Positions 1-10,896 of a DNA stretch of 11,042 nt are shown piece after piece. The DNA is from a virus. The stretch lies in the UHGV virus genome UHGV-0292601. The stretch is one strand, 5' to 3'. The notes under the pieces are model-generated. The model made no database searches, was not told the origin of the DNA, and worked only from the letters and a program-made list of their open reading frames with translations. The number at the start of each line of letters is the position of its first letter. Positions within the stretch are counted from its first letter, which is position 1. Both the position numbers and the translations under genes were made by a program.

Positions 1-246
1 TTGTCATCAGCACAACCGGGCGATGTGCTGCTGTGCTGTTTTGGTTCATCGGTGCCGAATCATGCCGCCATTTACTGTGGTGATGGCGAGCTGCTGCACC
101 ATATTCCTGAACAACTGAGTAAACGAGAGAGGTATACCGACAAATGGCAGCGACGCACACACTCCCTCTGGCGTCACCGGGCATGGCACGCATCTGCCTT
201 TACGGGGATTTGCAACGATTTGGCCGCCGCATCGACCTTCGTGTGA
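1..246 (+). CDS. K: Tail assembly protein K, C-terminal part (5' end lies outside the window)
   Basis: The frame is open from base 1 and the translation (…GDVLLCCFGSSVPNHAAIYCGDGELLHHIPEQLSKRERYTDKWQ…) matches my recollection of the lambda gpK C-terminus. It overlaps the start of the next gene exactly as K and I do in lambda. The 'M' shown by the ORF track at TTG is an artefact of window truncation. Confidence 0.8.
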   Translation: MSSAQPGDVLLCCFGSSVPNHAAIYCGDGELLHHIPEQLSKRERYTDKWQRRTHSLWRHRAWHASAFTGICNDLAAASTFV

Positions 247-791
247 AAACGGGGGCTGAAGCCATCCGGGCGCTGGCCACACAGCTCCCGGCGTTTCGTC
301 AGAAACTGAGCGACGGCTGGTATCAGGTGCGCATTGCCGGGCGTGATGCAGGCGAAAATGAATTATCTGCCCGTCTTAATGAACCGCTGGCAAATGGTGC
401 CGTGATCCACATCGTTCCGCGTCTGGCGGGTGCCAAAAGTGGCGGTGTGTTTCAGGCGGTGCTGGGTGCGGCGCTGATTGCGGTGGCATGGTGGAACCCT
501 GTGGGCTGGCTGGGGGCCGCGGCTGTATCGGGTATGTATGCAGCAGGGGCCAGTATGATCCTGGGTGGTGTGGCGCAGATGCTGGCACCGAAAGCCAGAA
601 CTCCCCGTACACAGACAACGGATAACGGTAAGCAGAACACCTATTTCTCCTCACTGGATAACATGGTTGCCCAGGGCAATGTTCTGCCTGTTCTGTACGG
701 GGAAATGCGCGTGGGGTCGCGGGTGGTCTCTCAGGAGATCAGCACGGCAGACGAGGGGGACGGTGGTCAGGTTGTGGTGATTGGTCGTTGA
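144..791 (+). CDS. I: Tail assembly protein I
   Basis: 215-aa ORF starting MAATHTLPLASPGMARICLYGDLQRFGRRIDLRVKTGAEAIRALA and ending …VSQEISTADEGDGGQVVVIGR, both matching lambda gpI as I recall it; the middle is divergent. It sits between K and J. Confidence 0.88.
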   Translation: MAATHTLPLASPGMARICLYGDLQRFGRRIDLRVKTGAEAIRALATQLPAFRQKLSDGWYQVRIAGRDAGENELSARLNEPLANGAVIHIVPRLAGAKSGGVFQAVLGAALIAVAWWNPVGWLGAAAVSGMYAAGASMILGGVAQMLAPKARTPRTQTTDNGKQNTYFSSLDNMVAQGNVLPVLYGEMRVGSRVVSQEISTADEGDGGQVVVIGR

Positions 792-809
792 TGAAAAACG
801 TTTTATGTG

Positions 810-829
810 AAACCGCCTCAGGGCGGTTT
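810..829 (+). other. Short stem-loop in the I-J intergenic region
   Basis: AAACCGCC (810-817) / TCAG loop / GGCGGTTT (822-829), followed by a T-rich stretch, about 20 nt upstream of the J start. Could be an attenuator or mRNA-processing/stability element; function not established. Confidence 0.3.
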
Positions 830-851
830 TGTCGTTTCTGGAGCGTGAGGA

Positions 852-3800
852 ATGGGTAAAGGCAGCAGTAAGGGGCATACCCCGCGCGAAGCGAAGGACA
901 ACCTGAAATCATCCCAGATGCTGAGCGTGATAGACGCCATCAGTGAAGGGCCGATTGAAGGTCCGGTGGACGGATTAAAAAGTGTGCTGCTGAACAGTAC
1001 GCCAGTGCTGGACAGTGAGGGGAATACCAATATCTCCGGCGTCACGGTGGTGTTCCGGGCAGGTGAGCAGGAGCAGACACCGCCGGAGGGATTTGAATCC
1101 TCCGGCTCCGAGACGGTGCTGGGTACGGAAGTGAAGTACGACACGCCGATTACCCGGACCATCACGTCTGCAAACATCGACCGTCTGCGCTTTACCTTCG
1201 GTGTGCAGGCACTGGTGGAAACCACCTCAAAGGGGGACCGGAATCCGTCGGAAGTCCGCCTGCTGGTTCAGATACAGCGTAACGGTGGCTGGGTGACGGA
1301 AAAAGACATCACCATTAAAGGCAAAACCACCTCGCAGTATCTGGCCTCGGTGGTGGTGGATAACCTGCCGCCGCGCCCGTTCAACATCCGGATGCGCAGG
1401 ATGACGCCGGACAGCACCACAGACCAGCTGCAGAACAAAACGCTCTGGTCGTCATACACCGAAATCATCGATGTGAAACAGTGCTACCCGAACACTGCAC
1501 TGGTCGGCGTGCAGGTGGACTCGGAGCAGTTCGGCAGCCAGCAGGTGAGCCGTAATTATCATCTTCGCGGGCGCATTCTGCAGGTGCCGTCGAACTATAA
1601 CCCGCAGACGCGGCAATACAGCGGTATCTGGGACGGAACGTTTAAGCCGGCATACAGCAACAACCCGGCCTGGTGTCTGTGGGATATGCTGACCCACCCG
1701 CGCTACGGCATGGGGAAACGTCTTGGTGCGGCGGATGTGGATAAATGGGCGCTGTATGTCATCGGCCAGTACTGCGACCAGTCAGTGCCGGACGGTTTTG
1801 GCGGCACGGAGCCGCGCATCACCTGTAATGCCTGGCTGACCACGCAGCGTAAGGCGTGGGATGTGCTCAGTGATTTCTGCTCGGCGATGCGCTGTATGCC
1901 GGTATGGAACGGGCAGACGCTGACGTTCGTGCAGGACCGACCATCAGATAAGGTGTGGATCTATAACCGCAGTAATGTGGTGATGTCGGATGATGGCGCG
2001 CCGTTCCGCTACAGCTTCAGCGCCCTGAAGGACCGCCATAATGCCGTTGAGGTGAACTGGATTGACCCGAACAACGGCTGGGAGACGGCGACAGAGCTTG
2101 TTGAAGATACGCAGGCCATTGCCCGTTACGGTCGTAATGTCACGAAGATGGATGCCTTTGGCTGTACCAGCCGGGGGCAGGCACACCGCGCCGGGCTGTG
2201 GCTGATTAAAACGGAACTGCTGGAGACGCAGACCGTGGACTTCAGCGTGGGCGCAGAAGGGCTTCGCCATGTACCGGGCGATGTCATTGAAATCTGCGAT
2301 GATGACTATGCCGGTATCAGCACCGGTGGTCGCGTGCTGGCGGTGAACAGCCAGACCCGGACGCTGACGCTCGACCGTGAAATCACGCTGCCATCCTCCG
2401 GTACCACGCTGATAAGCCTGGTTGACGGAAGTGGTAATCCGGTCAGCGTGGAGGTTCAGTCCGTCACCGACGGACTTAAGGTGAAAGTGAACCGGGTTCC
2501 TGACGGCGTTGCAGAATACAGTGTGTGGGGGCTGAAGTTGCCGACGTTGCGTCAGCGCCTGTTCCGCTGTGTGAGTATCCGTGAGAACGATGACGGCACG
2601 TATGCCATCACTGCCGTGCAGCATGTACCGGAAAAAGAAGCCATCGTGGATAACGGGGCGCACTTTGACGGCGACCAGAGCGGCACGGTGAATGGTGTCA
2701 CGCCGCCAGCGGTGCAGCACCTGACCGCCGAAGTCACCGCAGACAGCGGGGAATATCAGGTGCTGGCGCGCTGGGACACGCCGAAGGTGGTGAAGGGCGT
2801 GAGCTTCCTGCTCCGTCTGACCGTAACAGCGGATGACGGCAGTGAGCTGCTGGTCAGCACGGCCCGGACGACGGAAACCACATACCGCTTCACGCAACTG
2901 GCGCCAGGGAACTACAGGCTGACAGTCCGGGCGGTAAATGCGTGGGGGCAGCAGGGCGATCCGGCGTCGGTATCGTTCCGGATTGCCGCCCCGGCAGCGC
3001 CGTCGCGGATTGAGCTGACGCCGGGCTATTTTCAGATAACCGCCACGCCGCATCTTGCCGTTTATGACCCGACGGTACAGTTTGAGTTCTGGTTCTCGGA
3101 AAAGCGGATTACCGATATCAGGCAGGTTGAAACCACAGCCCGCTATCTTGGTACGGCGCTGTACTGGATAGCCGCCAGTATCAATATCAAACCGGGCCAT
3201 GATTATTACTTTTATATCCGCAGTGTGAACACCGTTGGCAAATCGGCATTCGTGGAGGCCGTCGGTCGGGCGAGCGATGATGCGGAAGGTTACCTGGATT
3301 TTTTCAAAGGCAAGATAACCGAATCCCATCTCGGTAAAGAGCTGCTGGAAAAAGTTGATCTGACGGAGGATAACGCCAGCAGACTGGATGAGTTTTCGAA
3401 AGAGTGGAAGGACGCTAACGATAAATGGAATGCCATGTGGGGCGTCAAAATTGAGCAGACCAAAGACGGCAAACATTATGTCGCGGGTATTGGCCTCAGC
3501 ATGGAGGACACGGAGGAAGGCAAGCTGAGCCAGTTTCTGGTTGCCGCTAACCGTATCGCGTTTATTGACCCGGCAAACGGGAATGAAACGCCGATGTTTG
3601 TGGCGCAGGGCAACCAGATATTCATGAACGACGTGTTCCTGAAGCGCCTGACAGCCCCCACCATTACCAGCGGTGGCAGTCCTCCGGTATTTTCCCTGAC
3701 ATCAGACGGAAAGCTGACCGCTAAAAATGCGGATATCAGTGGTAGTGTGAATGCGAACTCAGGAACGCTCAACAATGTCACGATTAACCAGAACTGTACG

Positions 3801-4265
3801 ATTAAGGGCATGCTGGAGGCGACTCAGGTCAGAGGTGACTTCGTTAAAGCTGTATCCAAATCATTTCCGAAACAGGCTGGTACGTGGGGTAACACGGAAA
3901 CGCCAAACGGGACGGTTACAGTCACCATCAGCGATGATCATAACTTTGACCGTCAAATCATTATTCCGCCCATTATCTTTAACGGAATAGCGTATAGCGA
4001 TCCGGGAAGTGGTAATAACCCGGGAGGTACAAGATACACGGGTTATGGTTTTGAAGTTCGCAAAAACGGTGTATTAATCGCATCCAGAGAAACTAAAGGG
4101 GCCATTCCCGGTAGCTACAGTGCGGTTATTGATATGCCGAGTGGCAGGGGAAGCGTCACTCTGGAGTTTAAGGTTTTCCATAAAGGCAATCAATGGGCAG
4201 GTAATATCACCGACTGTACGGTGATTGTGACCAAAAAAGCCGCTTCCGGCATCAGTATTCGTTGA
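852..4265 (+). CDS. J: Tail tip / host specificity protein J (central tail fiber)
   Basis: 1137-aa ORF with a GAGG Shine-Dalgarno at 845-848. The N-terminus [20 protein letters not shown]… and most of the length are near-identical to lambda gpJ as I recall it. The last ~150 codons diverge and become AT-rich. Confidence 0.95.
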
Positions 4266-4285
4266 AATTGTTATAACCCATATAA

Positions 4286-4310
4286 GGGCACCAGAAATGG
4301 TGCCTTTTTT
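4286..4310 (+). terminator. Rho-independent terminator downstream of J
   Basis: GC-rich hairpin GGGCACC (4286-4292) / AGAAAT loop / GGTGCC (4299-4304), followed immediately by TTTTTT (4305-4310). Confidence 0.6.
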
Positions 4311-4334
4311 ATTGCAGAAAAGCGAGAGGTAATT

Positions 4335-4934
4335 ATGCGTAAACTTTATGCCGCCATTTTGTCCGCAGCCATTTGTCTGGCCGTATCCGGTGCGCCTGCA
4401 TGGGCATCTGAACATCAGTCCACGCTGAGCGCGGGGTATCTTCATGCCCGGACCAACGTTCCCGGCAGTGATGATCTGAACGGGATTAACGTGAAATACC
4501 GTTATGAGTTTACGGATACGCTGGGGCTGGTGACGTCATTCAGCTATGCAGGAGACAAGAATCGCCAGCTGACCCGTTACAGCGATACCCGCTGGCATGA
4601 AGATTCCGTTCGTAACCGCTGGTTCAGCGTAATGGCGGGGCCGTCTGTGCGCGTGAATGAATGGTTCAGCGCGTATGCGATGGCGGGTGTGGCTTACAGC
4701 CGTGTGTCGACTTTCTCCGGGGATTATCTCCGCGTAACTGACAACAAGGGGAAAACGCACGACGTGCTGACCGGAAGTGATGACGGTCGCCACAGCAACA
4801 CGTCTCTGGCGTGGGGAGCTGGCGTGCAGTTTAACCCGACCGAATCCGTGGCCATTGATATTGCTTATGAAGGCTCCGGCAGTGGCGACTGGCGCACTGA
4901 CGGTTTCATCGTGGGTGTCGGTTATAAGTTCTGA
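4335..4934 (+). CDS. lom: Outer membrane protein Lom (Ail/Lom family beta-barrel)
   Basis: 199-aa ORF with a GAGAGG Shine-Dalgarno upstream. It has an N-terminal signal peptide (MRKLYAAILSAAICLAVSGAPAWA) and a C-terminal aromatic residue (…GVGYKF) typical of outer membrane beta-barrels. The sequence is near-identical to lambda Lom as I recall it. Confidence 0.93.
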   Translation: MRKLYAAILSAAICLAVSGAPAWASEHQSTLSAGYLHARTNVPGSDDLNGINVKYRYEFTDTLGLVTSFSYAGDKNRQLTRYSDTRWHEDSVRNRWFSVMAGPSVRVNEWFSAYAMAGVAYSRVSTFSGDYLRVTDNKGKTHDVLTGSDDGRHSNTSLAWGAGVQFNPTESVAIDIAYEGSGSGDWRTDGFIVGVGYKF

Positions 4935-4960
4935 TTAGCCAGGTAACACAGTGTTATGAC

Positions 4961-4988
4961 AGCCCGCCGGTTCAGGCGGGCTTTTTTG
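4961..4988 (+). terminator. Rho-independent terminator downstream of lom
   Basis: Hairpin AGCCCGCC (4961-4968) / GGTTCA loop / GGCGGGCT (4975-4982), followed by TTTTTT. Confidence 0.6.
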
Positions 4989-4998
4989 TGGGGTGAAT

Positions 4999-6759
4999 AT
5001 GGCAGTTAAGATTTCAGGTGTACTGAAAGACGGCACAGGAAAACCGGTACAGAACTGCACAATCCAGCTGAAAGCAAAACGTAACAGCACCACGGTGGTG
5101 GTGAACACGCTGGCCTCAGAAAATCCGGATGAAGCCGGGCGTTACAGCATGGACGTTGAGTACGGTCAGTACAGCGTTATTCTGTTGGTGGAGGGATTCC
5201 CGCCGTCACATGCCGGGACCATCACCGTGTATGAAGATTCCCGACCCGGTACGCTGAATGATTTTCTCGGTGCCATGACGGAGGATGATGCCCGTCCGGA
5301 GGCTCTGCGCCGTTTTGAACTGATGGTGGAAGAGGTGGCGCGTAACGCGTCCGCGGTGGCACAGAACACGGCAGCCGCGAAGAAGTCAGCCAGTGATGCC
5401 GGCACATCTGCCAGTGAGGCGGCAACCCATGCGACTGATGCTGCAGGCTCAGCGCGTGCAGCCAGCACGTCAGCCGGACAGGCCGCGACGTCGGCTCAGG
5501 AGGCGTCTTCCAGCGCAGGAACGGCATCAACAAAGGCCACTGAAGCATCAAAAAGTGCTGCCGCTGCAGAGTCCTCAAAAAGCGCGGCGGCCACCAGTGC
5601 CGGTGCCGCGAAAACGTCAGAAACGAATGCTGCAGCGTCACAACAATCAGCAGCCACTTCTGCATCCACCGCGACCACGAAAGCGTCAGAAGCTGCCTCC
5701 TCAGCCCGGGATGCGTCGGCTTCAAAAGAGGCGGCAAAATCATCAGAAACGAACGCATCATCAAGCGCCAGTAGTGCCGCTTCCTCGGCAACGGCGGCAG
5801 GAAATTCCGCGAAGGCGGCAAAGACGTCTGAGACAAACGCTAAGTCCTCTGAAACGGCAGCGGAACAGAGTGCCTCAGCTGCGGCAGGCTCAAAAACAGC
5901 GGCTGCATCATCTGCCAGTGCCGCGTCAACAAGTGCCGGGCAGGCCTCAGCCAGTGCCACCGCCGCCGGAAAATCGGCAGAAAGTGCTGCATCGTCCGCT
6001 TCAACAGCCACAACGAAGGCTGGCGAAGCCGCTGTACAGGCCAGCGCAGCAGCGAGGTCTGCTTCCGCAGCGAAGACATCCGAGACGAACGCGAAAGCGT
6101 CGGAAACCAGCGCAGAATCCTCAAAAACGGCTGCCGCATCGTCCGCCAGTTCGGCGGCGTCATCGGCATCATCTGCGTCTGCTTCAAAAGATGAGGCGAC
6201 CAGACAAGCGTCCGCAGCGAAGGGCAGCGCCACGACAGCATCCACGAAGGCGACAGAGGCAGCTGGCAGTGCGACGGCGGCAGCACAGAGCAAAAGTACG
6301 GCGGAATCCGCGGCAACGCGCGCCGAGACAGCGGCAAAACGGGCAGAGGATATTGCATCCGCCGTGGCGCTTGAGGATGCGAGCACGACGAAAAAGGGGA
6401 TAGTACAGCTCAGCAGTGCGACCAACAGCACTTCCGAGTCACAGGCGGCAACGCCAAAAGCCGTTAAGGCCGCGTATGACCTGGCTAACGGGAAATACAC
6501 CGCACAGGATGCAACGACAGCACAGAAAGGGATAATCCAGCTAAGCAGCGCGACCAACAGCACATCTGAAACGCTTGCCGCGACACCAAAGGCAGTAAAA
6601 ACAGCCTATGACAATGCTGAGAAACGTCTGCAGAAAGATCAGAACGGTGCGGATATCCCTGGCAAAGACACCTTTACGAAAAATATTGGTGCCTGCCGTG
6701 CCTTCGGTGGGTCAGTAAGCACAACAACAGGAAACTGGACGACTGCACAGTTTATCTAG
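4999..6759 (+). CDS. stf: Side tail fiber protein Stf, N-terminal and shaft part (ends at an in-frame TAG)
   Basis: MAVKISGVLKDGTGKPVQNCTIQLKA… matches the lambda Stf N-terminus. The ORF track starts at GTG 4993, but ATG 4999 gives the lambda-like start. A long Ala/Ser/Thr-rich shaft is followed by two copies of the conserved GI(V/I)QLSSATNSTSE…ATPKAVK tail-fiber repeat. The frame stops at TAG 6757-6759 and reopens immediately in the same frame. Confidence 0.85.
   Translation: MAVKISGVLKDGTGKPVQNCTIQLKAKRNSTTVVVNTLASENPDEAGRYSMDVEYGQYSVILLVEGFPPSHAGTITVYEDSRPGTLNDFLGAMTEDDARPEALRRFELMVEEVARNASAVAQNTAAAKKSASDAGTSASEAATHATDAAGSARAASTSAGQAATSAQEASSSAGTASTKATEASKSAAAAESSKSAAATSAGAAKTSETNAAASQQSAATSASTATTKASEAASSARDASASKEAAKSSETNASSSASSAASSATAAGNSAKAAKTSETNAKSSETAAEQSASAAAGSKTAAASSASAASTSAGQASASATAAGKSAESAASSASTATTKAGEAAVQASAAARSASAAKTSETNAKASETSAESSKTAAASSASSAASSASSASASKDEATRQASAAKGSATTASTKATEAAGSATAAAQSKSTAESAATRAETAAKRAEDIASAVALEDASTTKKGIVQLSSATNSTSESQAATPKAVKAAYDLANGKYTAQDATTAQKGIIQLSSATNSTSETLAATPKAVKTAYDNAEKRLQKDQNGADIPGKDTFTKNIGACRAFGGSVSTTTGNWTTAQFI
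5341..6390 (+). repeat. Ala/Ser/Thr-rich low-complexity coding repeats in the Stf shaft
   Basis: Degenerate reiteration of units such as AAKTSETNA, SSASSAASSA and TKATEAA at the protein level. The GC-rich GCN/TCN codon runs generate long spurious ORFs in other frames and on the - strand. Confidence 0.7.
6391..6612 (+). repeat. Tandem duplication of the tail-fiber repeat (two ~132-bp units)
   Basis: Unit 1 is 6391-6480 (KKGIVQLSSATNSTSESQAATPKAVKAAYD). Unit 2 is 6523-6612 (QKGIIQLSSATNSTSETLAATPKAVKTAYD). Confidence 0.8.
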
Positions 6760-6798
6760 TGGCTGGATTCTCAGGGAGCATTTAACCATCCCTACTGG

Positions 6799-8070
6799 AT
6801 GTGCAAGGGTTCCTGGTCTTATGGCAATAATAAAATCATTACTGATACTGACTGCGGTAATATTCATCTCGCCGGAGCTGTCATTGAAGTAATGGGGATA
6901 AAGTCAGCGATGACGATCCGCATTACCACACCGACCACCTCCACTGGTGGTGGAACAACTAACGCCCAGTTTACCTATATTAATCACGGAACAGATTATT
7001 CACCTGGCTGGCGAAGGGACTATAACTCCAGAAATAAGCCAACGGCATCAGAGATCGGGGCGTTACCGTCAGGTGGAACAGCAGTATCATCAGTTAATCT
7101 GGCTTCAAAAGGTCGGGTAACCGCGCTGACAGACAATACGCAGGGGGCAACAGGTCTTGAGTTATACGAGGTGTATAACAACGGATATCCAACAGCGTAT
7201 GGAAATATCATTCACCTGAAAGGGATGACAGCCGTTGGCGAAGGTGAGTTACTCATCGGCTGGAGTGGTACAAGCGGTGCTCATGCTCCGGCATTTATTC
7301 GTTCACGACGGGATACGACCGACGCAAACTGGTCGCCGTGGGCGCAGCTTTACACCTCGGCTCATCCTCCTGCAGAGTTTTATCCAGTCGGTGCACCAAT
7401 CCCGTGGCCATCAGATACCGTTCCGTCTGGTTATGCCCTGATGCACGGGCAGACTTTTGACAAATCTGCCTACCCGAAACTTGCAGCCGCTTATCCGTCA
7501 GGCGTGATCCCTGATATGCGTGGCTGGACGATTAAGGGCAAACCTGCCAGTGGTCGTGCCGTATTGTCTCAGGAACAGGACGGCATTAAATCGCACACCC
7601 ACAGCGCCAGCGCATCCAGTACGGATTTGGGGACGAAAACCACATCGTCGTTTGATTACGGCACTAAATCCACGAATAACACCGGGGCTCATACGCACAG
7701 TCTGAGCGGCTCTACAAGCTCGGCCGGAGCACACTCGCACGTTGATGGTCGCAGGTTTAATACAAGCACTTTTAAAGACACCTATCAGTATGGTTCTACA
7801 GCTGTCGGAAGTAACTCATACCAGGTACAAGGGGCGGTTGGTCTGGGCATTGGCACGATGGCGAATACGAACTCTGCTGGCGCGCATACCCACTCACTGT
7901 CCGGCACTGCTGCAAGCGCAGGTGCACACGCACATACTGTCGGTATTGGTGCTCATACGCACTCCGTTGCGATTGGTTCACATGGACACACCATCACCGT
8001 TAACGCTGCTGGTAACGCGGAAAACACCGTCAAAAACATCGCATTTAACTATATTGTGAGGCTTGCATAA
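6799..8070 (+). CDS. stf: Side tail fiber protein Stf, C-terminal part (same frame as 4999..6759; sense codons run from 6760)
   Basis: In frame with the upstream stf ORF ((6799-4993) is divisible by 3). The 13 codons from 6760 to 6798 contain no stop. The C-terminal ~230 aa (…[19 protein letters not shown]…GAHTHSLSG…[22 protein letters not shown]) match the lambda Stf C-terminus, including the His-X-His repeats. The stop TAA 8068-8070 overlaps the tfa ATG (TAATG). Confidence 0.8.
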
Positions 8071-8654
8071 TGACATTCAGAATGAGTGAACAAGCACGGA
8101 CCATAAAAATTTATAATCTGCTGGCCGGAACTAATGAATTTATTGGTGAAGGTGATGCATATATTCCGCCTCATACAGGTCTGCCAGCAAACAGTACCGA
8201 TATTGCACCACCAGATATTCCTGCTGGCTTTGTGGCTGTTTTCAACAGTGATGAGGCATCGTGGCATCTCGTTGAAGACCATCGGGGTAAAACGGTTTAT
8301 GACGTGGCTTCCGGCGACGCGTTATTTATTTCTGAACTCGGTCCGTTACCGGAAAATGTTACCTGGTTATCGCCGGAAGGGGAGTTTCAGAAGTGGAACG
8401 GCACAGCCTGGGTGAAGGATACGGAAGCAGAAAAACTGTTCCGGATCCGGGAGGCGGAAGAAACAAAAAACAGCCTGATGCAGGTAGCCAGTGAGCATAT
8501 TGCGCCACTTCAGGATGCTGTAGATCTGGAAATCGCAACGGAGGAAGAAACCTCATTGCTGGAAGCCTGGAAAAAGTATCGGGTGTTGCTGAACCGTGTT
8601 GATACATCAACTGCACCTGATATTGAGTGGCCTACGAACCCTGTCAGGGAGTAA
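8070..8654 (+). CDS. tfa: Tail fiber assembly protein Tfa
   Basis: 194-aa [57 protein letters not shown]… near-identical to lambda Tfa as I recall it. Its start overlaps the stf stop, consistent with translational coupling. Confidence 0.9.
8489..8610 (+). repeat. Direct repeat, copy 1 (tfa 3' region)
   Basis: About 120 bp matching 9538..9659 at an estimated 85% identity (for example TATTGCGCCACTTCAGGATGCTGTAGATCTGGAAATCGCAACGGAGGAAGAAA versus the same with one mismatch at 9547-9599). Confidence 0.85.
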
Positions 8655-8708: not shown

Positions 8709-9377
8709 CTATTTTTTCCCTGAAGCGGAAAACATTACTACAGTACCTTGAACCTTGGTTTTAACATTCTCGAAATGCTCTGAGAGTATATGTGTTAAGC
8801 CTTCTTCGGAATCTTTTGTGTTTGAAAAGATGCCTTTCTGATTGTAAATGCGCATCAGTTTTTGACCGAAGCTATTGTGCACAACTCCATCGCCAAGAAT
8901 TGTGGCTCCGTATAGAGTTCCATCGTCAGTTAAGGCCTGCGCCGCATTGCGTATTACACAGCTTTTTGTAGATATATTTCCAGGCAGGCAGTGAAGAAGG
9001 TAAAACATGGAAATGGAATCAAATTGACCATGTAACGCCGCGGGATAAGGTTCAAAAACATCATGGCTAATTTTATGTTTAATTTTTGATTCCCCAGCCC
9101 TTGTAGATGCCGCGTTCAGGCTAGCTTCGTTCAAATCCATTAAAGATATCAGACTACTCTCAGGTACGTGAGTAAGGTAAAACCCAGTTCCAACACCAAT
9201 ATCCAGATGGTTGTTACCTAAATGTTCCAGAAAGTGTGGAAGAAGGTGTTCCTTTGTAGGACATCCCCATGCAAGCCGATTTGATACTCCCAAAACCCAC
9301 CAGTCATAAAGCTTTAGGGTAAGTGGTGTGTAAATTTTAGCCCCATCATCTGTGTTTTTTTTCATTAATTTCACCAT
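8709..9377 (-). CDS. Class I (Rossmann-fold) SAM-dependent methyltransferase, likely small-molecule or protein methyltransferase; phage cargo (moron) gene
   Basis: 222-aa ORF with the motif order typical of this fold: motif I LDIGVGTGFY, an acidic residue ending beta-2 (LMDLNE), motif II FDSISMFYLLHCLP, and motif III LTDDGTLYGATIL. I see no DNA-methyltransferase DPPY or PC motifs. Its position between tfa and a tfa remnant recalls the putative methyltransferase ybcY between tfaD and tfaX in the E. coli K-12 DLP12 prophage; that equivalence is from memory and unverified. A GGTGA Shine-Dalgarno better serves the second ATG (codon 5, base 9365), so the true start may be there. Confidence 0.75.
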   Translation of the reverse strand: MVKLMKKNTDDGAKIYTPLTLKLYDWWVLGVSNRLAWGCPTKEHLLPHFLEHLGNNHLDIGVGTGFYLTHVPESSLISLMDLNEASLNAASTRAGESKIKHKISHDVFEPYPAALHGQFDSISMFYLLHCLPGNISTKSCVIRNAAQALTDDGTLYGATILGDGVVHNSFGQKLMRIYNQKGIFSNTKDSEEGLTHILSEHFENVKTKVQGTVVMFSASGKK

Positions 9378-9433: not shown

Positions 9434-9739
9434 ATGCTGCCGCAACATAGCGATATTGAAATAGCCTGGTATGCTTCGATACAACAGGAGCCGAATGGCT
9501 GGAAGACCGTCACCACACAGTTCTACATCCAGGAATTCAGTGAGTATATTGCGCCACTGCAGGATGCTGTAGATCTGGAAATCGCAACGGAGGAAGAAAG
9601 ATCGTTGCTGGAGGCATGGAATAAATATCGGGTATTGTTGAATCGAGTTGATACATCAGTAGCTCTGGGTATGAAGCTGTTTGTAACTCATGTTACAGTA
9701 ACAGTCATTACTATCTCGAAGGTGCAAAATGTATATTGA
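9434..9739 (+). pseudogene. Truncated tail fiber assembly (tfa-like) remnant with an unrelated N-terminus
   Basis: 101-aa ORF whose central segment [38 protein letters not shown] duplicates Tfa residues encoded at about 8497-8610. The N-terminal 37 aa and the C-terminal tail show no Tfa similarity. An AAGGGG Shine-Dalgarno lies 5 nt upstream of the ATG, so it may still be translated. Confidence 0.55.
9538..9659 (+). repeat. Direct repeat, copy 2 (inside the tfa remnant)
   Basis: See copy 1. The two copies are in the same orientation and flank the - strand methyltransferase gene. Confidence 0.85.

Positions 9740-9870: not shown

Positions 9871-10896
<1,026 letters not shown>

What the first reader, a model, noticed from the sequence alone, without database searches (positions are those of the whole stretch)
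3815..4265. J has a lambda-like body but a divergent, AT-rich C-terminal receptor-binding end
Through about base 3800 the J product tracks lambda gpJ almost residue for residue, from my recollection. The final ~150 codons (…[149 protein letters not shown]) do not, and the DNA there is visibly more AT-rich. In lambda the C-terminal domain of gpJ contacts the LamB receptor, so a swapped C-terminus implies a different receptor specificity obtained by recombination.
Basis: partly seen in the sequence, partly recalled or inferred. Interest (0 to 1): 0.45.

Follow-up and report, generated by a model that had tools for sequence, protein, structure and literature searches.

The report
Phage-434-type receptor tip on lambda J
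The tail-tip protein J of this lambda-like E. coli prophage has a lambda-type body and the well-known, very common "h434" receptor-binding end, which in phage 434 targets the porin OmpC instead of LamB; this is a textbook case of module swapping and not a new feature.

Summary
J (852-4265, 1137 aa) is 96.8% identical to lambda gpJ over aa 1-985. It is 37.5% identical over the last 152 aa, with indels at four loop positions. DNA identity to lambda falls from about 0.96 to about 0.5 between nt 3760 and 3825. GC is 47.5% in 3815-4265 (GC3 45.7%), below every 451-nt window of the J body (mean 58%), whereas lambda's own end has 55%.

The divergent end is a known allele. It is 95.4% identical in protein to the end of phage 434 J and has the same length. 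It is 100% identical to the ends in Stx1a/Stx2c phages, ev099, PhiR49_1 and IdasGreatGrand. It occurs in 2111 of 5426 complete E. coli genomes. It keeps the gpJ receptor-binding-domain fold (Pfam PF12421; best structural matches are lambda gpJ-LamB and A8 gpJ-OmpC).

Phage PhiR30_1 matches the window on both sides of 3809-4226 but not inside it, which shows a clean cassette exchange.

Published work assigns OmpC as the receptor of 434 and of lambda h434, and describes the J "specificity region" as an independently recombining module.

Verdict: interpretation supported, receptor most likely OmpC, already known, low interest.

The parts
852..4265 (+). gene J (tip attachment protein / central tail fibre), 1137 aa
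   Evidence: ORF, translation. Pfam domains: Phage-tail_3, FNIII-A_GpJ, Ig_J, Ig_J_second, Phage_Tail_Tip, Ig_GpJ_C. 98.2% aa identity to phage 434 J and 88.8% to lambda J.
852..3808 (+). lambda-like J body (hub domains, FNIII domains, helical shaft, straight fibre)
   Evidence: 96.8% aa identity to lambda gpJ over aa 1-985. BLASTN homology to lambda runs to 3821 and to PhiR30_1 to 3808.
3809..4226 (+). exchangeable receptor-binding cassette, phage-434 (h434) type
   Evidence: No homology to PhiR30_1 here although both flanks match at 93-96%. About 0.5 DNA identity to lambda. 95.4% aa identity to the 434 J end and 100% to ev099, PhiR49_1, Stx1a/Stx2c phages and IdasGreatGrand. GC 47.5%, GC3 45.7%.
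3852..4259 (+). Pfam PF12421 Ig_GpJ_C receptor-binding domain (aa 1001-1136)
   Evidence: E = 9.5e-26, 90.9 bits against a cut-off of 26.2. phmmer against PDB: A8 gpJ713 at 6.5e-49, lambda gpJ at 8.5e-40. Foldseek top hits of the AF2 model: 8xcj, 8xck, 9wca, 9wcb.
4227..4265 (+). conserved C-terminal tail of J plus stop codon; right-hand homology arm of the cassette
   Evidence: Homology to PhiR30_1 resumes at 4227. The KK..GISI motif is shared with lambda and A8 gpJ.
4284..4315 (+). terminator-like hairpin plus T-run between J and lom
   Evidence: Pattern scan. A terminator is annotated at the equivalent place in phage 434.
4335..4934 (+). lom (Ail/Lom outer-membrane protein), 434-type allele; relative to lambda it belongs to the replaced segment
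   Evidence: Pfam Ail_Lom, E = 1.5e-120. 98% aa identity to 434 Lom and 45% to lambda Lom. DNA homology to lambda resumes solidly only at 4807.

Best explanation
Gene J of this lambdoid E. coli prophage is a mosaic. Its first ~985 codons are the lambda-type tail-tip body. Its last ~150 codons are the phage-434 ('h434') allele of the gpJ receptor-binding domain (RBD).

The RBD is a beta-sandwich (Ig-like) domain that sits as a trimer at the tip of the central fibre. Four distal loops insert into a trimeric outer-membrane porin, and binding triggers the rearrangement that opens the tail tip. In this allele those loops differ from lambda's in sequence and length, so the tip should dock to OmpC rather than LamB.

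The allele reached this J body by homologous recombination between the conserved sequences that flank the cassette. These are the end of the straight-fibre coding region on the left, and the last ~12 codons of J or downstream lom on the right.

Shown here: the mosaic structure, the identity with the 434 allele, the retained fold, cassette exchange among relatives, and purifying selection on the cassette. Inferred: OmpC as the receptor of this particular variant, and that the phage particle is still made.
For: Mosaic structure:
- aa 1-985 are 96.8% identical to lambda and aa 986-1137 are 37.5% identical.
- The DNA break lies at ~3760-3825.

Identity with the 434 allele:
- 145 of 152 aa are identical to 434 J with no indels, and DNA homology to 434 is continuous over 1..5420.
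- The hybrid 'Lambda h434 imm21' carries this RBD type (95.4%), whereas 'Lambda imm434' carries the lambda type (36.3%).
- The left crossover of that hybrid lies inside J at about codon 705-711.

Cassette behaviour:
- PhiR30_1 shares both flanks but not 3809-4226.
- RBD identities among 243 phage records are bimodal.

Fold:
- PF12421 hit.
- PDB sequence hits to gpJ only.
- Foldseek top hits are lambda gpJ713 with and without LamB, and A8 gpJ713 with and without OmpC.

Indels and selection:
- Indels against lambda fall at lambda aa 1011/1012, 1051, 1078, 1099 and 1109-1114. These match the four indel hotspots (1012, 1048-49, 1077-78, 1107) that define J specificity-region lineages in PMC6646904.
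- dN/dS between the window and 434 RBDs is 0.07.

Receptor (literature):
- 434 and lambda carrying the 434 J use OmpC (PMC3509688; PMC11101478; PMC12502783).
- Swapping only the gpJ C-terminus retargets lambda particles to OmpC (PMC11338833).
Against: - No adsorption data exist for this exact variant. It differs from 434 at 7 of 152 residues.
- Those 7 positions fall within the 30 genuinely variable positions of the 434-type RBD. Those positions cluster in a few patches that may tune specificity for OmpC alleles or another porin.
- The classical lambda h434 hybrid also carries 434 lom and stf, so by itself it does not map OmpC use to the RBD alone.
- The A8 gpJ solved with OmpC is only 43% identical to this RBD. 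It shows that the fold can bind OmpC, not that this allele does.
- The AF2 model is of moderate quality: mean pLDDT 63, with the loop at aa 1049-1061 below 50.
Confidence: 0.85

Rival explanations
1. The end diverged in place from a lambda-type RBD through accelerated point mutation under diversifying selection, with no recombination.
For: J specificity-region residues evolve fast and are hotspots for indels (PMC6646904). The two ends are still homologous at 37.5% identity.
Against: - The boundary spans about 60 nt, with ~96% DNA identity before it and ~50% after it.
- GC3 drops from 72.9% to 45.7%, which selection on amino acids cannot produce.
- The same RBD (100% aa) sits on different J bodies, and a near-identical J body (PhiR30_1) carries another RBD with homology resuming at 4227.
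- No intermediates exist between 60% and 90% identity.
- dN/dS within the type is 0.07, indicating purifying selection.
Confidence: 0.02
2. It is the 434-type module, but this variant recognises something other than K-12-type OmpC. That could be only certain OmpC alleles (as reported for the gpJ chimera 1A2, which works on EDL933 OmpC but not MG1655 OmpC) or another porin such as OmpF.
For: - Seven substitutions against 434 lie in the polymorphic patches aa 1004-1009, 1019, 1049, 1099 and 1115.
- The exact variant is the one carried by O157:H7 Stx1a/Stx2c phages.
- OmpC-allele-specific delivery by natural gpJ ends is documented (PMC11338833).
- Four point mutations suffice to add OmpF use to lambda J (PMC6646904).
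Against: 95.4% identity and an identical loop length pattern to 434. The database record of the phage PhiR26_1, whose J gene matches the window's J over its full length at 97.4% DNA identity, names E. coli K-12 MG1655 as its host (H3). The 1A2 sequence could not be retrieved for comparison.
Confidence: 0.12
3. The gene is an inert relic. The prophage is defective, so the RBD allele has no present function and its receptor specificity is moot.
For: stf carries an in-frame TAG (6757-6759) relative to an intact orthologue. An IS5-family transposase sits at 9916-10896, where homology to relatives stops.
Against: - J itself is an intact 1137-aa ORF with no frameshift and is 98% identical to functional phage J genes.
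- Lambda PaPa is fully infective with a broken stf (PMC11338833 describes Ur-lambda versus the laboratory strain).
- Only 11 kb are visible, so defectiveness cannot be judged.
Confidence: 0.15

Closest known systems
Phage 434 central tail fibre J (UMO75286.1, OL657226 15505..18918) and the classical 'h434' host-range allele of lambda h434 hybrids
   Same: Same length (1137 aa). 98.2% identity overall and 95.4% in the last 152 aa, with no indels. Same downstream terminator and same lom allele (98%). DNA homology is continuous over window 1..5420.
   Different: Seven substitutions in the RBD: S1004A, Q1008K, A1009V, N1019D, S1049D, R1099G, W1115R (window residue first). Synonymous divergence is 0.33 in the RBD against 0.11 in the body. 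The side tail fibre downstream is different: homology to 434 ends at 5420.
Lambda gpJ receptor-binding domain bound to LamB (PDB 8xcj / 8xck; PMC11101478)
   Same: Same Pfam domain (PF12421), same fold (Foldseek E ~1e-14), same position at the tip of an almost identical fibre, and a conserved core (GD.VK, DDH.FDRQ, DMP.GRG, KK..GIS).
   Different: Only 37.5% identity. Indels at the four loop regions: +2 at lambda aa 1011/12, +6 at 1051, +1 at 1078, and +2/-6 around 1099-1114. Lower GC. The receptor is expected to be OmpC, not LamB.
A8 gpJ713, a natural gpJ C-terminus grafted on lambda J and solved alone and with OmpC of E. coli EDL933 (PDB 9wca / 9wcb; chimera described in PMC11338833)
   Same: It is the best PDB sequence hit (E = 6.5e-49) and has the same fold. 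It shares the NNVTIN.NC junction sequence with the window and 434 rather than lambda's SNVTIAENC. It shows experimentally that a gpJ RBD can use OmpC.
   Different: A different RBD type: 43% identity over aa 986-1136, with different loop lengths.
J 'specificity region' module of natural lambda J homologues (Maddamsetti et al. 2018, PMC6646904)
   Same: That paper describes residues 960-1132 as an independently recombining module whose lineages are defined by indels at 1012, 1048-49, 1077-78 and 1107. The window's J shows this pattern and the module exchange.
   Different: Nothing of substance. The window is one more instance.

Membership tests
Lambda-type tip attachment protein J (central tail fibre) | Domain architecture from hub domains through FNIII/Ig domains and tail-tip fibre to the C-terminal RBD | tested here: met
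   Six Pfam gpJ domains in order, all above their cut-offs. 96.8% identity to lambda gpJ over aa 1-985.
Lambda-type tip attachment protein J (central tail fibre) | Gene order (K)-I-J-lom-stf-tfa in a lambdoid tail module | tested here: met
   Lambda_tail_I, gpJ, Ail_Lom, phage_tail_N fibre and Caudo_TAP occur in that order on the + strand. The order matches lambda and 434.
gpJ C-terminal receptor-binding domain (Pfam PF12421, Ig_GpJ_C) | Sequence match to the family profile above the gathering score | tested here: met
   90.9 bits against a cut-off of 26.2, aa 1001-1136, profile positions 1-134 of 135.
gpJ C-terminal receptor-binding domain (Pfam PF12421, Ig_GpJ_C) | All-beta fold superposable on solved gpJ RBDs | tested here: met
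   The AF2 model is all beta with pLDDT 70-90 in the core. Foldseek top four hits are 8xcj, 8xck, 9wca and 9wcb at E ~1e-14; the next hits are at E > 1e-4. Model quality is moderate.
Phage-434 (h434) allele of the J RBD | High identity and identical indel pattern to the 434 J C-terminus, distinct from other RBD types | tested here: met
   145 of 152 aa identical with no gaps. It falls in the >=90% mode of a bimodal distribution, with all other types below 60%.
Phage-434 (h434) allele of the J RBD | Adsorption and infection depend on OmpC and not on LamB | not testable with these tools
   Known for 434 and lambda h434 from the literature (PMC3509688, PMC11101478, PMC12502783).
Lambda-type, LamB-binding allele of the J RBD | Close sequence similarity to lambda aa ~986-1132, including loop lengths at 1012, 1048, 1077 and 1107 | tested here: not met
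   37.5% identity, with indels at all four loop regions.

The most novel reading that the evidence does not exclude
The seven substitutions that separate this RBD from the phage 434 RBD lie in patches that are polymorphic across the 434-type family. They may retune the tip to particular OmpC alleles, for example those of O157:H7-like strains, whose Stx1a/Stx2c phages carry the identical RBD. The 434-type family would then be a set of OmpC-allele-specific keys in an arms race with polymorphic OmpC.
Probability: 0.25. Interest if true: 0.3.

Novelty: already known. Interest (0 to 1): 0.1.

Why it matters
It matters little as a discovery. Exchange of the J host-range end between lambda and 434 has been used genetically since the 1960s-70s, and the modularity of the J specificity region is published.

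For annotation it is useful. The gene should be labelled as J with a 434-type RBD that probably binds OmpC. That label predicts which strains this prophage could infect: those with a compatible OmpC, independent of LamB and of maltose regulation.

The clean cassette boundaries (3809 and 4226) are also practical junction points for engineering gpJ chimeras.

Tried and rejected
- I looked for the sequence of the OmpC-targeting gpJ chimera 1A2 in the supplements of PMC11338833, to test whether it equals this RBD. Peptide searches found nothing, so this stays open.
- I looked for published receptor assignments for phages with the identical RBD (PhiR49_1, ev099, Perceval, IdasGreatGrand). Searches found no such data. 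The 2026 receptor-screen preprint deals with Drexlerviridae GpJ, not lambdoid J.
- phi330, an OmpC-dependent Stx siphophage, turned out to have a different RBD type, 35-40% identical to both 434 and lambda according to its authors. It is not direct evidence for this allele.
- I considered whether the classical lambda h434 hybrid maps OmpC use to the RBD alone. It does not: 434 DNA runs from J codon ~705 through lom and stf.
- The search for homologous proteins returned mostly J fragments above 90% identity. The alignment for structure prediction was therefore shallow and the model only moderate.
- GC as a stand-alone breakpoint marker was rejected, because the decline starts about 800 nt upstream and lambda shares it.

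Full report
**Observation.** The window encodes a 1137-aa protein at 852..4265 (+).

A global alignment with lambda gpJ (NC_001416 15505..18903, fetched) gives these protein identities:

| Region of J | Identity to lambda gpJ |
|---|---|
| every 50-aa block up to aa 950 | 92-100% |
| aa 951-1000 | 76% |
| blocks after aa 1000 | 30-42% |
| aa 1-985 overall | 96.8% |
| aa 986-1137 overall | 37.5% |

DNA identity to lambda is 0.91-0.99 up to nt 3701, 0.77 for 3702-3851 and about 0.5 from 3852 onward. A three-way DNA alignment shows mismatches to lambda accumulating from about nt 3760, with homology lost after about 3822. BLASTN homology to lambda stops at 3821.

**Base composition.** The segment 3815-4265 has 47.5% GC. 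Windows of 451 nt within the J body have mean 58.0%, sd 3.5 and minimum 49.4%. GC3 is 45.7%, against 72.9% in the first 2100 nt of J. The homologous end of lambda J has 55.2% GC and GC3 62.3%, while phage 434 has 48.3%.

Two caveats apply. GC already falls from about nt 3000, and lambda shares that fall (52.7% versus 53.4% for J nt 2100-2960). Relative to the whole 11-kb window, the value is only at the 18th percentile.

**What it is.** Megablast of J against phage genomes finds full-length matches at 94-98% identity. These include phage 434 (96.3%) and the laboratory hybrid Lambda h434 imm21 (95.6%).

- Against 434 J (OL657226 15505..18918) the window's J has the same length. It is 98.2% identical overall and 95.4% identical (145/152, no gaps) in the last 152 aa.
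- DNA homology to 434 is continuous from window 1 to 5420, that is through J, the intergenic terminator, lom and the start of stf.
- TBLASTN of the last 152 aa against 50,697 phage records gives a bimodal result: 74 records at >=90% identity, 169 at <60% and none between.
- Identical (100% aa) ends occur in ev099, PhiR49_1, IdasGreatGrand and many Stx1a- and Stx2c-converting phages.
- 'Lambda h434 imm21' has this type (95.4%), while 'Lambda imm434' and lambda itself have the other (36.3%).
- The cassette DNA (nt 3830-4265) is found in 2111 of 5426 complete E. coli genomes, in up to 7 copies per genome.
- The protein database holds thousands of member sequences from E. coli, E. albertii and Shigella sonnei.

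This is a common, discrete allele: the 434 or 'h434' type of the J receptor-binding end.

**Same fold, different loops.**
- Pfam places PF12421 (Tip attachment protein J, C-terminal receptor binding domain) at aa 1001-1136, with 90.9 bits against a cut-off of 26.2.
- The only PDB sequences that match are gpJ chains: A8 gpJ713 (E = 6.5e-49) and lambda gpJ (about 1e-39).
- An AlphaFold2 model of aa 951-1137 is all-beta. pLDDT is 70-90 through the domain core and below 50 in the loop at aa 1049-1061.
- The four best Foldseek matches of that model are lambda gpJ713 open with LamB (8xcj), lambda gpJ713 closed (8xck), A8 gpJ713 closed (9wca) and A8 gpJ713 open with OmpC of E. coli EDL933 (9wcb). All have E ~1e-14; the next hits are at E > 1e-4.
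- Relative to lambda, the window's domain has indels at lambda aa 1011/1012 (+2), 1051 (+6), 1078 (+1), 1099 (+2) and 1109-1114 (-6).
- These coincide with the four indel hotspots (1012, 1048-49, 1077-78, 1107) that Maddamsetti et al. found to define lineages of the J 'specificity region' (PMC6646904).
- According to the lambda-LamB structure paper, the RBD is an Ig-like domain whose four bottom loops L1-L4 insert into the porin. Binding spreads the three RBDs and triggers the twist that opens the tail tip (PMC11101478).

**Recombination.** Phage PhiR30_1 (PV340558) is homologous to the window over 1..3808 (93.1%) and again over 4227..6480 (95.8%), but not over 3809..4226. Its RBD is 42% identical. 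This is a clean cassette replacement with conserved arms on both sides.

- The left arm is the end of the straight-fibre coding region (...[19 protein letters not shown]).
- The right arm is the last ~12 codons of J plus the downstream DNA.
- Relative to lambda, the right junction lies further downstream. Homology resumes solidly only at 4807, inside lom. Lom is 45% identical to lambda Lom but 98% identical to 434 Lom.
- Between the window and 434, dS is 0.33 in the RBD against 0.11 in the body, and dN/dS is about 0.07 in both. The cassette is an older lineage under purifying selection that has been moved between J bodies.
- Maddamsetti et al. reached the same general conclusion from incongruent trees (PMC6646904).

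**Receptor.** Reviews and structural papers state that replacing lambda J with the 434 gene switches the phage to OmpC, the receptor of 434 (PMC3509688; PMC11101478; PMC12502783). I compared the sequenced hybrid Lambda h434 imm21 with its parents. Its left crossover lies inside J between record positions 17619 and 17637 (J codon ~705-711), and 434 sequence continues rightward through lom and stf. The classical hybrid therefore confines the determinant to the region from J codon ~705 onward, but not to the RBD alone.

Independent support comes from Brödel et al. They grafted only natural gpJ C-termini onto lambda J, supplied an unrelated P2-type side fibre, and obtained OmpC-dependent, LamB-independent delivery (PMC11338833). 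One of those chimeras (A8) has since been solved with OmpC. A8 is only 43% identical to the present RBD, so it shows what the fold can do, not what this allele does.

On balance, OmpC is the most likely receptor here (about 0.8). This is an inference from 95% identity to the 434 domain.

**Residual uncertainty.** The seven differences from 434 are S1004A, Q1008K, A1009V, N1019D, S1049D, R1099G and W1115R (window residue first). They fall in the patches that are polymorphic among 26 sequences of the 434 type: aa 1004-1009, 1019, 1049-1050, 1097-1101 and 1108-1115. The variability listed there for aa 986-993 comes from fragmentary database entries and should be ignored.

Two of these patches line up with lambda residues 1012 and 1107, which control the LamB-to-OmpF expansion in the laboratory (PMC6646904). 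OmpC is polymorphic, and one natural gpJ end (1A2) works on EDL933 OmpC but not on MG1655 OmpC (PMC11338833). Fine tuning to OmpC alleles is therefore plausible. I could not retrieve the 1A2 sequence to compare.

**Context.** On the + strand the window holds:
- the tail assembly gene I (ORF 144..791);
- J;
- a terminator-like hairpin (4284-4307);
- lom (4335..4934);
- a side tail fibre gene (4993..8070);
- tfa (8070..8654).

A class I SAM methyltransferase lies on the minus strand (8709..9377). It is followed by a tfa fragment (9434..9739) and an IS5-family transposase (9916..10896).

The closest matches are E. coli chromosomal prophages. In strain A8 the prophage end lies next to an alpha/beta hydrolase gene and ompT.

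**Verdict.** The feature is the long-known 434-type host-range module of J, present in about 39% of complete E. coli genomes. It is ordinary and already known.

Noticed in passing
window 4993-8070, stop at 6757-6759: The side tail fibre gene stf is one reading frame interrupted by an in-frame TAG. The change is GAG to TAG (E589*) relative to the intact 1023-aa orthologue of E. coli strain A8 (NZ_CP028766; 99% aa identity). This explains the two ORFs 4993..6759 and 6799..8070. It recalls the broken stf of laboratory lambda. If the mutation is real, J would be the only adhesin.
   Followed up: yes
window 9916-10896 (homology to relatives ends ~9847): An IS5/ISKpn26-like transposase (DDE_Tnp_1, DUF772) sits at the right end. 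In related prophages an alpha/beta hydrolase gene and ompT follow at this point. The element is probably an IS insertion at the prophage end.
   Followed up: partly
window 8709-9377 (-) and 9434-9739 (+): A minus-strand class I SAM-dependent methyltransferase (YbcY-like) lies between the full tfa and a second, N-terminally truncated tfa copy. Window 9527-9658 repeats 8478-8609 of relatives at about 87% identity. Some relatives have a recombinase/invertase nearby, so this may be a remnant of an alternative tail-fibre segment.
   Followed up: no
window 4335-4934: lom is the 434-type allele: 98% aa identity to 434 Lom and 45% to lambda Lom. Only the last ~25 residues are identical to lambda. Relative to lambda, the replaced DNA therefore spans the J RBD, the intergenic region and about 470 nt of lom (3822-4806).
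   Followed up: yes
L006 (OM418627, Lambda h434 imm21), record 17619-17637: In the classical hybrid, the left lambda/434 crossover lies inside J at about codon 705-711. 434 sequence continues through lom and stf. The h434 marker as carried by this stock therefore includes more than the RBD.
   Followed up: yes
window 3807-4262 (J aa 986-1137): Among 26 sequences of the 434-type RBD, the variable positions cluster in patches at aa 1004-1009, 1019, 1049-1050, 1097-1101 and 1108-1115. Synonymous divergence from 434 is three times higher in the RBD than in the J body (0.33 versus 0.11), with dN/dS about 0.07.
   Followed up: partly
window 852-4265 versus L004/L005: Near-identical tail regions in different E. 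coli strains carry different J ends. Strain 135 has a 3399-nt lambda-length J, while strain A8 has a 3414-nt J like the window. This illustrates RBD exchange within one prophage lineage.
   Followed up: no
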